Source of the DNA: a virus
Lineage: Duplodnaviria > Heunggongvirae > Uroviricota > Caudoviricetes
DNA: 27,684 nt
Direction: 5' to 3' (one strand)
IMG/VR virus record: IMGVR_UViG_2562617057_000002
Part shown: positions 15,850-16,440 of the stretch, one piece after another
Layout of the letters: the number at the start of each line of letters is the position of its first letter
Numbering within the stretch: the stretch's first letter is position 1
Translations under genes and position numbers: made by a program
The notes under the pieces: model-generated
What the model saw: the letters and a program-made list of their open reading frames with translations, nothing else
Told to the model about the DNA's origin: nothing
The model's database searches: none

Positions 15850-15953
15850 ACAATCCTCCACTTCAATCAAACACAACAATTGTTCACTTAAAAAGAACAT
15901 AAGTCAACACCCTGAGAAATTGTTAGTGTTCACTGAACGGTTATAATTGCCAA
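15850..15953. promoter_or_regulatory. Divergent immunity-region promoter/operator segment (pRM-like rightward, pR-like leftward)
   Basis: Rightward TTGTTA-N16-TATAAT with the TATAAT ending 6 nt before the repressor ATG (leaderless); leftward TTGACT-N17-AACAAT; palindromes AACAATTGTT (15875-15884) and GTTCACTGAAC (15928-15938); recurring half-site TGTTCA. Confidence 0.5.
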
Positions 15954-16343
15954 ATGGACATGAGAAAAAAGCAATACGACACCCCGCTGGCAGAAAGGTT
16001 AGATACGATCTCGCAACAGCATCACTTAAGCGGTTCAGATTTAGCGCGTATCGCTGGTGTAGGTCGCTCATCAGTTAACGCATGGAAAAAAAGAGGAACA
16101 ATCAGTAAAGATTCCGCGGCAAAAATTGCAGAAGCTACAAACGTATCCCTTTCCTGGTTGCTGACAGGAAAAGAAGATAGCAATAGAGAGACACTTGATG
16201 ATGATGAGAAAGCCCTGCTTGATGTTTACAGAAATCTGCCACCTGTAGAACGCAGAAATATGCTTGCAGCTTTTCAAATGCGACTTCAAAAACTGACTGA
16301 ATTTTATTCAGAATACGTTGACCCAGCAACGCGTCAAAAATAA
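15954..16343 (+). CDS. CI-type prophage repressor (XRE-family HTH, RacR-like)
   Basis: 129 aa; HTH LSGSDLARIAGVGRSSVNAWKK; divergent from the Cro-like gene; followed by a terminator. Confidence 0.7.
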   Translation: MDMRKKQYDTPLAERLDTISQQHHLSGSDLARIAGVGRSSVNAWKKRGTISKDSAAKIAEATNVSLSWLLTGKEDSNRETLDDDEKALLDVYRNLPPVERRNMLAAFQMRLQKLTEFYSEYVDPATRQK

Positions 16344-16364
16344 TTCTTTATTTTACAAAACAAT

Positions 16365-16388
16365 ACCGCCGAAAGGCGGTTTTTTTTG
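16365..16388 (+). terminator. Rho-independent terminator after the repressor gene
   Basis: ACCGCC-GAAA-GGCGGT followed by TTTTTTTG. Confidence 0.6.
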
Positions 16389-16408
16389 CCTTTTATGAAT
16401 TCATAATG

Positions 16409-16440
16409 TTGACATATGTTCATTTAAAGAGAACAATGTA
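16409..16440 (+). promoter_or_regulatory. Candidate pL-like early-left promoter with operator inverted repeat TGTTC-N9-GAACA
   Basis: TTGACA at 16409-16414; inverted repeat 16417-16435 shares the TGTTCA half-site with the immunity-region palindromes. Confidence 0.4.

What the first reader, a model, noticed from the sequence alone, without database searches (positions are those of the whole stretch)
15850..16440. Immunity region with a leaderless repressor gene and a recurring TGTTCA operator half-site
The TATAAT at 15942-15947 ends 6 nt before the repressor ATG (15954), implying a leaderless mRNA as for lambda cI from pRM. The palindromes AACAATTGTT (15875-15884), GTTCACTGAAC (15928-15938) and TGTTC-N9-GAACA (16417-16435) overlap the three predicted promoters, suggesting a shared operator family.
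Basis: seen in the sequence. Interest (0 to 1): 0.45.

Follow-up and report, generated by a model that had tools for sequence, protein, structure and literature searches.

The report
Prophage immunity switch, leaderless repressor
This is an ordinary lysis/lysogeny switch of a Rac/Qin-type E. coli prophage: a short repressor gene that most likely starts at the first base of its mRNA, flanked by two copies of a 19-bp operator that sit inside the two early promoters.

Summary
The region is the immunity region of a lambdoid prophage of the Rac/Qin/CP-933P type. It holds a 129-aa CI-like repressor without a protease domain (15954-16343, +), a divergent Cro-like YdaS gene and a CII-like YdaT gene.

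The operator model needs correcting. The real operator is a 19-bp inverted repeat, TGTTCA-N7-AGAACA. It occurs exactly twice in 27.7 kb (0.04 expected). The other lies at the same position in PL (16417-16435).

AACAATTGTT is only the PR -10 joined to the start of that operator. The right arm of GTTCACTGAAC is not conserved outside E. coli; only the half-site GTGTTCACT in the PRM spacer is.

The leaderless reading is well supported but not proven. A -10 hexamer ends 6-7 nt before the ATG in 13 of 13 related loci, and in most of the distant relatives examined. None of the 13 has a Shine-Dalgarno sequence. Mapped leaderless starts are published for dicA, racR and paaR2.

Operators co-vary with the repressor across relatives. 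This is a new immunity specificity of a known kind, of low interest. A conserved 55-nt leader just after PL remains unexplained.

The parts
15168..15590 (-). CII-like gene (YdaT family, 140 aa)
   Evidence: Pfam PF06254 45.1 bits (cutoff 21). PHROG 163 'CII-like transcriptional activator', 4.5e-35.
15580..15597 (.). Candidate YdaT (CII-like) binding site CTGATTTTCATGAATCAT at the ydaS/ydaT junction (weak)
   Evidence: It has 2 mismatches to TTGATT-N6-AATCAA. It lies where YdaT of CP-933P was footprinted, at the end of ydaS (PMC9986795). Not statistically significant alone.
15574..15849 (-). Cro-like gene (YdaS family, 91 aa), start ATG 15849
   Evidence: Pfam PF15943 41.3 bits (cutoff 30). PHROG 35. 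30% identical to Rac YdaS. PGAP annotates the same 91-aa frame in strain 6817.
15854..15859 (-). Shine-Dalgarno GGAGGA of the Cro-like gene
   Evidence: Duplex with the anti-SD is -9.3 kcal/mol, against -2.4 upstream of the repressor ATG. Positions 15856-15859 are invariant in 17 distinct intergenic sequences.
15860..15878 (.). Possible weak auxiliary operator (minus-strand TGTTGTGTTTGATTGAAGT, 7/10), 21 bp centre to centre from the strong PR operator
   Evidence: Not significant alone (score below 0). The same position holds a full second operator in L022 and L028 and a conserved GTGAAC half-site in L002, L025 and L027.
15879..15907 (-). PR: -35 TTGACT (15907..15902), 17-bp spacer, -10 AACAAT (15884..15879); drives ydaS-ydaT and the replication genes
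   Evidence: The same architecture is present in 13 of 13 related loci. GTCAAC and ATTGTT are invariant.
15881..15899 (.). Strong right operator TGTTCACTTAAAAAGAACA, occupying the PR spacer and -10
   Evidence: Exact match. 29.7 bits with a matrix built from relatives. The half-sites are invariant and the centre is variable.
15920..15947 (+). PRM: -35 TTGTTA, 16-bp spacer, -10 TATAAT; predicted +1 at A15954
   Evidence: 10/12 match. GGTTATAATTGC is invariant. A -10 hexamer lies 6-7 nt before the ATG in 13 of 13 loci.
15927..15945 (.). Half-operator over PRM (TGTTCACT + GAACGGTTATA); the conserved core GTGTTCACT is 15926-15934
   Evidence: The left half is perfect and invariant; the right half matches 2 of 6. 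Relatives carry a fuller palindrome of their own half-site in the same register.
15954..16343 (+). Repressor gene (129 aa): 5-helix HTH plus C-terminal helical hairpin, no S24 protease domain
   Evidence: Pfam PF07022 48.2 bits and HTH_3. AlphaFold2 pLDDT 82. Fold matches to SinR and to the 434 and P22 repressor DNA-binding domains. 25% identical to DicA.
16365..16388 (+). Intrinsic terminator of the repressor transcript (ACCGCC-GAAA-GGCGGT followed by a T run)
   Evidence: Retained in relatives.
16409..16437 (+). PL: -35 TTGACA, 17-bp spacer, -10 AACAAT; drives the DUF1391 gene and the following early-left genes
   Evidence: 10/12 match. Same architecture in 12 related loci.
16417..16435 (.). 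Left operator TGTTCATTTAAAGAGAACA, at the same position inside PL as the right operator inside PR
   Evidence: Exact match. 29.9 bits. In IMG/VR this promoter-operator pair flanks the repressor gene in 24 contigs.
16444..16500 (+). Conserved leader of the PL transcript (two small hairpins); function unknown
   Evidence: Conserved in all related loci, in Qin, and partly in Rac. One copy per locus. No Rfam family.

Best explanation
The region is the lysis/lysogeny switch of a lambdoid prophage of the Rac/Qin/CP-933P type, laid out as a mirror image of lambda.

How it most likely works. The 129-aa repressor binds, probably as a dimer, to a 19-bp inverted repeat TGTTCA-N7-AGAACA. That repeat fills the spacer and -10 of both early promoters, PR (15881-15899) and PL (16417-16435), so bound repressor shuts both early operons by excluding RNA polymerase.

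The repressor is made from PRM (TTGTTA-16-TATAAT). The start point of PRM falls on the A of the ATG at 15954. The mRNA therefore has no leader and no Shine-Dalgarno sequence, and the protein is 129 aa, not the 127 aa often annotated.

A conserved half-operator (GTGTTCACT) over the PRM spacer and -10 most likely gives weak negative autoregulation. It may also be the preferred site of the Cro-like YdaS protein, which would switch the repressor off when the lytic programme starts.

The repressor has no protease domain. Induction is therefore expected to go through an antirepressor, as in Gifsy prophages and Qin, rather than RecA-stimulated self-cleavage.

What is shown: sequence elements, their statistics, their conservation and their co-variation with the repressor. 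What is inferred: actual binding, the start site, autoregulation and the route of induction.
For: Gene content: Phage_CI_repr/HTH_3 repressor, YdaS and YdaT families, O-like and DnaB genes to one side and DUF1391 to the other.

Operator statistics: two exact copies against 0.04 expected. A matrix built from relatives scores them at 29.7 and 29.9 bits against a shuffle maximum of 17.7, with nothing else in the window above 7.2 bits.

Placement: both copies sit at the identical position in near-identical promoters, TTGAC(T/A)-TA-[operator]-AT.

Linkage: in IMG/VR the promoter-operator pattern flanks the repressor gene in all 25 contigs that encode a homologue. In 24 of them both copies are present, about 530 bp apart.

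Co-variation: the operator half-site changes with the repressor. It is TGTTCA in 6 loci, and TGTTAGC, TGTCAG, GTTGA or TTAGCC in the others. The residue after Trp44 is K or R in 6 of 6 TGTTCA loci and H, Y or F in 7 of 7 others.

Footprint: the invariant runs in 17 distinct intergenic sequences are exactly the hexamers, the half-sites, the cro Shine-Dalgarno and the ATG.

Leaderless reading: a -10 hexamer ends 6-7 nt before the ATG in 13 of 13 loci, although the N-terminus varies (MDMRKK, MNTKKK, MKKK). The same holds for most of the distant relatives L004-L015. There is no Shine-Dalgarno before the repressor, while every cro gene has one. The only purine conserved at position 7 after the -10 is the A of the ATG.

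Published precedent: leaderless starts were mapped for dicA, racR and ymfK by dRNA-seq (PMC4681348), for racR PracR3 by primer extension (PMC9638921), and for paaR2 by 5' RACE with N-terminal sequencing (PMC8630535).

Fold: HTH domain plus helical hairpin, with SinR in the SinR/SinI complex as best match.
Against: No transcript or binding data exist for this element.

The PRM half-site and the 15860-15878 site are not distinguishable from chance by score. Their support is comparative only.

NCBI's pipeline calls the second ATG (15960) in many genomes.

A start at A15952 or A15953 would leave a 1-2 nt leader.

No LexA box was found in the window. A Rha/anti-repressor-like gene exists at 19277-19831, but nothing links it to this repressor, so the induction route is a guess.
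Confidence: 0.85

Rival explanations
1. The repressor is translated from a leadered mRNA and starts at the second ATG (15960, 127 aa), as NCBI's pipeline annotates in many genomes. On this view the TATAAT next to the ATG is conserved for another reason, for example as part of an operator.
For: PGAP calls the 127-aa form in strain 6817 and many others. Several homologues align from the position of Met3. racR has additional upstream promoters (PMC9638921). CP-933P has a YdaT-activated PRE-like promoter that would give a long leader (PMC9986795).
Against: There is no Shine-Dalgarno before either ATG. In homologues that begin MKKK the -10 has moved with the ATG, so the 6-nt gap is kept. L026 (MNTKKK) has no second ATG at all. 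All 13 loci and most of the distant relatives examined keep the -10 hexamer 6-7 nt from the first ATG. Relatives with mapped 5' ends are leaderless.
Confidence: 0.1
2. The TGTTCA sites are primarily operators of the Cro-like YdaS protein, or of both proteins equally, and the repressor recognises something else in the intergenic region.
For: In CP-933P the PaaR2 and YdaS footprints overlap (PMC8630535). YdaS is also an HTH protein and co-varies with the locus.
Against: The PL copy lies next to the repressor gene and far from cro. Operator type tracks a residue at the end of the repressor's recognition helix. No other repeated element is present in the intergenic region. Shared operators are the norm for CI/Cro pairs, so this is more a complement than a rival.
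Confidence: 0.25
3. The locus is a toxin-antitoxin-like addiction module (repressor as antitoxin, YdaS/YdaT as toxins), as the Pfam names suggest, rather than a phage developmental switch.
For: The Pfam names are 'Bacterial toxin YdaS' and 'Bacterial toxin ydaT'. Losing RacR is lethal in K-12 (PMC5700373, listed).
Against: The genes lie in the canonical cro-cII-O-helicase order with a PL operon on the other side. YdaS and YdaT were shown to act as Cro and CII equivalents (PMC8630535 and PMC9986795). PHROGs files them as a transcriptional repressor and a CII-like activator.
Confidence: 0.05

Closest known systems
Qin prophage dicA-dicC immunity locus with dicBp (E. coli K-12)
   Same: Both have a short (129 vs 135 aa) non-cleavable repressor with an HTH and a C-terminal helical region. 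The two proteins align over their full length (NF007257 match over residues 12-124). Both have a divergent Cro-like gene. Both have TGTT-type inverted-repeat operators inside PR-like and PL-like promoters (Qin: TGTTAGTCATAACTAACA and TGTTAGTCATGGCTAATC). A DUF1391 gene comes first in the PL operon in both. The PL leader is homologous. dicA is leaderless (PMC4681348).
   Different: Identity is only 25%, and the score is below the DicA family cutoff (38.9 vs 101 bits). The operator is 19 bp with half-site TGTTCA, against 18 bp with TGTTAG in Qin. The Cro is of the YdaS family rather than DicC. A YdaT gene is present here.
CP-933P paaR2 / ydaS-ydaT switch (E. coli O157:H7)
   Same: Both have the gene order repressor <-> ydaS-ydaT, a roughly 100-bp intergenic region with back-to-back PR and PRM, and a further operator-bearing PL. 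In CP-933P the leaderless repressor mRNA was proven by 5' RACE and N-terminal sequencing, and YdaT binds at the ydaS/ydaT junction.
   Different: CP-933P has four 18-bp palindromes with a GTTTAGTAA consensus in the intergenic region. Here there is one full operator plus a half-site. In CP-933P paaR2 is co-transcribed with a toxin-antitoxin pair; here the repressor gene ends in its own terminator. I did not compare the PaaR2 sequence directly.
Rac prophage racR / ydaS-ydaT (E. coli K-12)
   Same: Same gene order, YdaS and YdaT family proteins (30% identity for YdaS), a leaderless main racR promoter, and the same 3' half of the PL leader.
   Different: RacR is 158 aa and resembles this repressor only over 28 residues of the HTH. 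Its reported binding sites are nine monomer-type sites of a different sequence (TTAGGC-like).
Phage lambda cI-PRM/OR/PR-cro and OL/PL
   Same: Same logic: divergent PRM and PR, the same repressor acting at a right and a left operator, leaderless cI from PRM, cII and replication genes after cro. The predicted PR and PRM start points here are about 82 bp apart (about 15872 and 15954). From my memory lambda has the same spacing; I did not check this.
   Different: There is no S24 autocleavage domain. There is one strong operator per promoter, placed in the spacer and -10, instead of three tandem operators. No N gene or nut sites were recognised.
Gifsy prophage repressors GfoR/GfhR/GtgR with LexA-controlled antirepressors (Salmonella)
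   Same: Small repressors of about 130-150 aa that are not cleaved and are removed from DNA by an antirepressor (PMC3121763). Close homologues of the window's repressor are abundant in Salmonella prophages.
   Different: I could not establish identity of any homologue with a named Gifsy repressor. No LexA box or proven antirepressor is in the window.

Membership tests
Rac/Qin/CP-933P-type lambdoid immunity region | Divergent repressor and Cro-like genes separated by a short intergenic region with back-to-back promoters | tested here: met
   The intergenic region is 104 bp (15850-15953). PR and PRM are found by the scan and conserved in 13 loci.
Rac/Qin/CP-933P-type lambdoid immunity region | YdaS-family Cro analogue followed by a YdaT-family CII analogue | tested here: met
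   PF15943 41.3 bits (cutoff 30) and PF06254 45.1 bits (cutoff 21).
Rac/Qin/CP-933P-type lambdoid immunity region | Short repressor lacking the S24/LexA-type autocleavage domain | tested here: met
   129 aa, with only HTH-type Pfam hits. The model shows an HTH plus a helical hairpin.
Rac/Qin/CP-933P-type lambdoid immunity region | Repressor operators at both a PR-like and a PL-like promoter | tested here: met
   Two exact 19-bp sites inside the two promoters. The pair flanks the repressor gene in 24 viral contigs. Actual binding cannot be tested with these tools.
Rac/Qin/CP-933P-type lambdoid immunity region | Leaderless repressor mRNA (transcription starts at the A of the ATG) | tested here: inconclusive
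   The geometry is exact and conserved, and there is no Shine-Dalgarno. No transcript data are available here.
DicA subfamily (NCBIfam NF007257) | Score at or above the curated cutoff of 101 bits | tested here: not met
   38.9 bits, E 6.7e-10, aligned over residues 12-124. 25% identity to K-12 DicA. It is a distant relative, not a DicA orthologue, despite the UniRef name 'Transcriptional repressor DicA'.
Pfam PF07022 Phage_CI_repr (phage 186 CI-type HTH) | Score above the gathering threshold of 22 bits | tested here: met
   48.2 bits. Weak direct match to the 186 CI N-terminal domain 2fjr, E 0.003.
Lambda CI / LexA-type self-cleaving repressors | C-terminal S24 peptidase domain with Ser/Lys dyad and Ala-Gly cleavage site | tested here: not met
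   No Peptidase_S24 hit. The protein ends at residue 129 after two helices.
Antirepressor-controlled repressors (Gifsy GfoR/GtgR, Qin DicA-Rem) | A cognate antirepressor that binds the repressor and releases it from DNA | not testable with these tools
   There is only a candidate, a Rha/anti-repressor-like ORF at 19277-19831. No LexA box is present. The best fold match is SinR in its complex with the antagonist SinI.
HK022 put / lambda nut antitermination sites (considered for the PL leader at 16444-16500) | Sequence similarity to putL, or a second copy downstream of PR | tested here: not met
   Local alignment to the HK022 PL-nun interval scores 27, against 24.2 +/- 3.5 for shuffles. nhmmer finds one copy per locus, always after PL. 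No Rfam family matches.

The most novel reading that the evidence does not exclude
The conserved ~55-nt leader that begins at the predicted PL start (16444-16500) may be an undescribed cis-acting RNA of N-less Rac/Qin-type prophages. It has two small hairpins. In the sequences I inspected by eye and folded one at a time, the second stem appears to change in a compensatory way (CCC/GGG to CCG/CGG, CCA/TGG or GCC/GGC) around a conserved GGCGWTAA loop. It could act as a processive-antitermination, Rho-blocking or processing element that governs expression of the whole early-left operon. Within the finding itself, the most novel reading is that PRM is controlled through a single conserved half-operator, so repressor occupancy there depends on cooperativity or looping with the strong PR and PL sites 46 and about 490 bp away.
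Probability: 0.15. Interest if true: 0.55.

Novelty: new member of a known kind. Interest (0 to 1): 0.2.

Why it matters
It adds one more immunity specificity to the family of short, non-cleavable, leaderless prophage repressors already studied in Rac, Qin, CP-933P and Gifsy. The new specificity is the operator TGTTCA-N7-AGAACA, with K or R after Trp44 of the repressor.

Practical value is modest:
- It corrects the start codon. The protein is 129 aa, and many automatic annotations give 127 aa.
- It gives exact operator and promoter coordinates for anyone who wants to derepress or engineer this prophage, which is found in at least 82 of 5,426 complete E. coli genomes.
- It offers a natural series of repressor/operator pairs for studying how HTH specificity drifts.

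Nothing here would surprise a phage biologist.

Tried and rejected
(1) TTATGAATTCATAA (16393-16406), a perfect 14-bp palindrome just upstream of the PL -35. It is not conserved even in the 91%-identical locus L001, so I rejected it as an operator.

(2) TGTTAGTGTTCACTGAACG (15921-15939), a 2-mismatch match to the operator pattern over the PRM -35. It scores 1.65 bits and is not conserved in L002 or L019, so I rejected it.

(3) A LexA box that would point to an SOS-controlled antirepressor. The only CTGT-N8-ACAG lies inside coding sequence at 6105, which chance allows (25 of 100 shuffles). There is no match to the 20-bp consensus within 3 mismatches.

(4) Known RNA families in the immunity region. 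There are none at gathering threshold, and the E-value mode gave only noise.

(5) HK022 putL as a relative of the PL leader. There is no similarity.

(6) A second copy of the leader, analogous to nutR or putR. None was found.

(7) RNAalifold on a MAFFT alignment of the leader gave essentially no consensus structure. The alignment misplaces the variable loops. The hairpins were seen only in single-sequence folds and by eye, so that structure is not statistically tested.

(8) Naming any Salmonella homologue as a Gifsy repressor. The cluster names are generic.

(9) A literature search for the operator string found only irrelevant papers.

(10) Phage-database megablast. No sequenced phage carries this immunity region; the best hit was 18% coverage in Rac-SA53.

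Full report
**What is in the sequence.**

The surrounding genes:
- On the minus strand: a DnaB-type helicase (12929-14359), an O-like replication initiator (14322-15077), a YdaT-family CII-like gene (15168-15590) and a YdaS-family Cro-like gene (15574-15849, with GGAGGA at 15859..15854).
- On the plus strand: a 129-aa HTH protein (15954-16343; Pfam Phage_CI_repr 48.2 bits, HTH_3), an intrinsic terminator (16365-16388), and then a DUF1391 gene and other small ORFs.

This is the lambda order PL - cI - PRM/PR - cro - cII - O - P, seen in mirror image. The window is 99.9% identical here to prophages of several E. coli strains. The whole 971-bp region is present in 82 of 5,426 complete genomes. No sequenced phage in the collection carries it.

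**Promoters.** The consensus scan finds three well-placed promoters:
- PRM, TTGTTA-16-TATAAT (15920-15947).
- PR on the minus strand, TTGACT-17-AACAAT (15907..15879).
- PL, TTGACA-17-AACAAT (16409-16437).

PR and PL are near-duplicates: TTGACT TA TGTTCTTTTTAAGTGAACA AT and TTGACA TA TGTTCATTTAAAGAGAACA AT.

**The operator.** The repeated element is a 19-bp inverted repeat, TGTTCA-N7-AGAACA.
- TGTTC-N9-GAACA occurs exactly twice in the 27.7-kb window, at 15881-15899 and 16417-16435. The expectation is 0.04, and 0 of 100 shuffles reach two.
- A weight matrix built only from the PR and PL sites of five other loci scores these two at 29.7 and 29.9 bits. The best of 200 shuffled windows is 17.7 bits, and the next real site scores 7.2 bits.
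Its 'AACAATTGTT palindrome' is the PR -10 (AACAAT on the minus strand) run together with the first bases of the operator.
- A 14-bp palindrome upstream of PL (TTATGAATTCATAA) is not conserved even in a 91%-identical locus, so it is chance.

**Comparative test.** I collected the same region from relatives whose repressors are 57-98% identical. They come from E. coli, Salmonella, Lelliottia, Enterobacter, Cronobacter and Raoultella, plus metagenome contigs, one of whose repressors is named Klebsiella aerogenes by NCBI. All 13 loci have the same architecture.
- In 17 distinct intergenic sequences of the TGTTCA group, the invariant runs are exactly the predicted parts. They are the cro Shine-Dalgarno, ATTGTTCAC, GAAC, GTCAAC (the PR -35), GTGTTCACT, GGTTATAATTGC and the ATG. 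The operator centre and the other spacers vary.
- The operator changes together with the repressor. It is TGTTCA in six loci, and TGTTAGC, TGTCAG, GTTGA or TTAGCC in the others, each time at both PR and PL.
- The residue following Trp44, at the end of the recognition helix, is K or R in 6 of 6 TGTTCA loci and H, Y or F in 7 of 7 others.
- A scan of 2.9 million viral contigs for TTGAC-N4-GTTC-N9-GAACAAT returned 37 loci. All 25 that encode a repressor homologue have the pattern next to that gene. In 24 of them one copy lies on each side, about 530 bp apart as in the window. The 12 loci without the repressor have single, presumably chance, matches.

**The site over PRM.** GTTCACTGAAC is a palindrome only in the E. 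coli lineage. In Lelliottia, Salmonella and the other more distant TGTTCA-group loci its right arm is replaced (CTGCGAG, CTGAGAG, CTGAGTG, CTACGAG), while GTGTTCACT is invariant.
- Read in the 19-bp register (15927-15945), the left half is perfect and the right half (GTTATA, overlapping the -10) matches 2 of 6. The full-length score is at chance level (0.45 bits).
- The sister groups carry a fuller palindrome of their own half-site in exactly this register. An example is AATTAGCCAAAGGCTTATA in L021, whose PR site is TGTTAGCCTAAAGCTTACA.
- I therefore read it as a weak, OR3-like half-operator.
- A further candidate at 15860-15878 (7 of 10) lies 21 bp from the strong PR site. Relatives L022 and L028 have a full second operator there. 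In the window it is not significant.

**Leaderless repressor.** TATAAT ends at 15947, so position +7 is A15954, the A of the first ATG.
- In all 13 loci a -10 hexamer (TATAAT, TATACT, TACAAT or TAAAAT) ends 6-7 nt before the first ATG. This holds although the N-terminus differs (MDMRKK, MNTKKK, MKKK, MKE, MSK). When the protein lost two residues, the -10 moved with the ATG.
- The same holds in most of the distant relatives examined, from Erwinia, Sodalis, Serratia, Chimaeribacter, Xenorhabdus and Phlomobacter.
- No repressor gene has a Shine-Dalgarno within reach, while every cro gene does (window: -2.4 against -9.3 kcal/mol).
- The only purine conserved at +7 is the A of the ATG.
- Published data give direct precedent in the same class of prophage. 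dRNA-seq shows dicA, racR and ymfK as leaderless (PMC4681348). Primer extension and mutagenesis show the leaderless PracR3 as the main racR promoter (PMC9638921). 5' RACE, N-terminal sequencing and mass spectrometry prove it for paaR2 (PMC8630535).
It remains an inference until a 5' end is mapped.

**The protein and induction.** The AlphaFold2 model (pLDDT 82) has a five-helix HTH domain (residues 11-71), a linker and a helical hairpin (83-121).
- Fold search returns SinR in its complex with the antagonist SinI, and the DNA-binding domains of the 434 and P22 repressors.
- The protein aligns end to end with DicA at 25% identity. It scores below the DicA family cutoff (38.9 against 101 bits), so it is a distant relative and not an orthologue.
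- There is no S24 protease domain. By analogy with Gifsy repressors (PMC3121763) and with DicA and its antirepressor Rem, induction is expected to use an antirepressor.
- A Rha/anti-repressor-like ORF lies at 19277-19831. I found no LexA box in the window, so this step is open.

**Verdict.** This is a standard immunity switch of the Rac/Qin/CP-933P kind with its own operator specificity. Novelty: a new member of a known kind. Interest is low.

**Seen in passing.** The first ~55 nt of the predicted PL transcript (16444-16500) are conserved across all immunity types, including Qin and partly Rac.
- It can form two small hairpins. In single-sequence folds and by eye the stems look compensatory between loci.
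- It has no Rfam family and does not resemble HK022 putL.
- It occurs once per locus, always after PL (nhmmer).
- RNAalifold on an automatic alignment did not recover the structure, so it is a lead, not a finding.

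Noticed in passing
window 16444-16500 (also L023:1938-1999 in Qin, L004:3020-3090, L006:4112-4180): A conserved ~55-nt leader starts at the predicted PL +1 (CATCAAAGCACAACGGTGCGACAGG...GTTCCGCCACCCGGCGTTAAGGGG). It is shared by prophages with unrelated operator specificities. It can form two hairpins. By eye, the second stem changes CCC/GGG to CCG/CGG, CCA/TGG or GCC/GGC around a conserved GGCGWTAA loop. There is no Rfam family, no similarity to HK022 putL, and one copy per locus. Function unknown.
   Followed up: partly
window 15954 vs 15960: Public annotations disagree on the repressor start: 129 aa from the first ATG or 127 aa from the second (PGAP in strain 6817 and many others). 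The conserved distance between the -10 and the ATG favours the 129-aa form.
   Followed up: yes
window 15580-15597: CTGATTTTCATGAATCAT has 2 mismatches to the YdaT site TTGATT-N6-AATCAA. It sits at the ydaS/ydaT junction, where YdaT of CP-933P binds near a PRE-like promoter. This may be the establishment-promoter control site.
   Followed up: partly
window 19143-19232 and 19277-19831: An Rfam sRNA-Xcc1 match (67.4 bits) lies immediately upstream of a Rha-family/anti-repressor-like gene, which is a candidate inducer of the switch. No LexA box is nearby.
   Followed up: partly
window 18395-18957: A two-gene pair that looks like a type II toxin-antitoxin module: a 77-aa ORF with no family hit, which I take from its sequence to be Phd/YefM-like, and a 106-aa ORF with a weak RelE/StbE match (21.5 bits, below the cutoff). 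It lies in the early-left region, about 2 kb from the repressor rather than in its operon as in CP-933P.
   Followed up: no
window 25338-25516, 8306-8480, 1835-2141, 27078-27222: Other RNA genes found by Rfam: the RalA antitoxin sRNA (Rac-type RalR/RalA), a sok antisense RNA, a cluster of four tRNA genes, and the chromosomal SraC/RyeA-SdsR/RyeB pair. The last probably marks the end of the prophage.
   Followed up: no
L020:2390-2500 (Salmonella): In this locus the PL-region site (TATTCGCCAATGACAAATA) does not match the locus's own PR operator (TGTTAG type), and the sequence downstream is identical to that of L019. This suggests a recombination junction inside the PL region that may have uncoupled PL from the resident repressor.
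   Followed up: no
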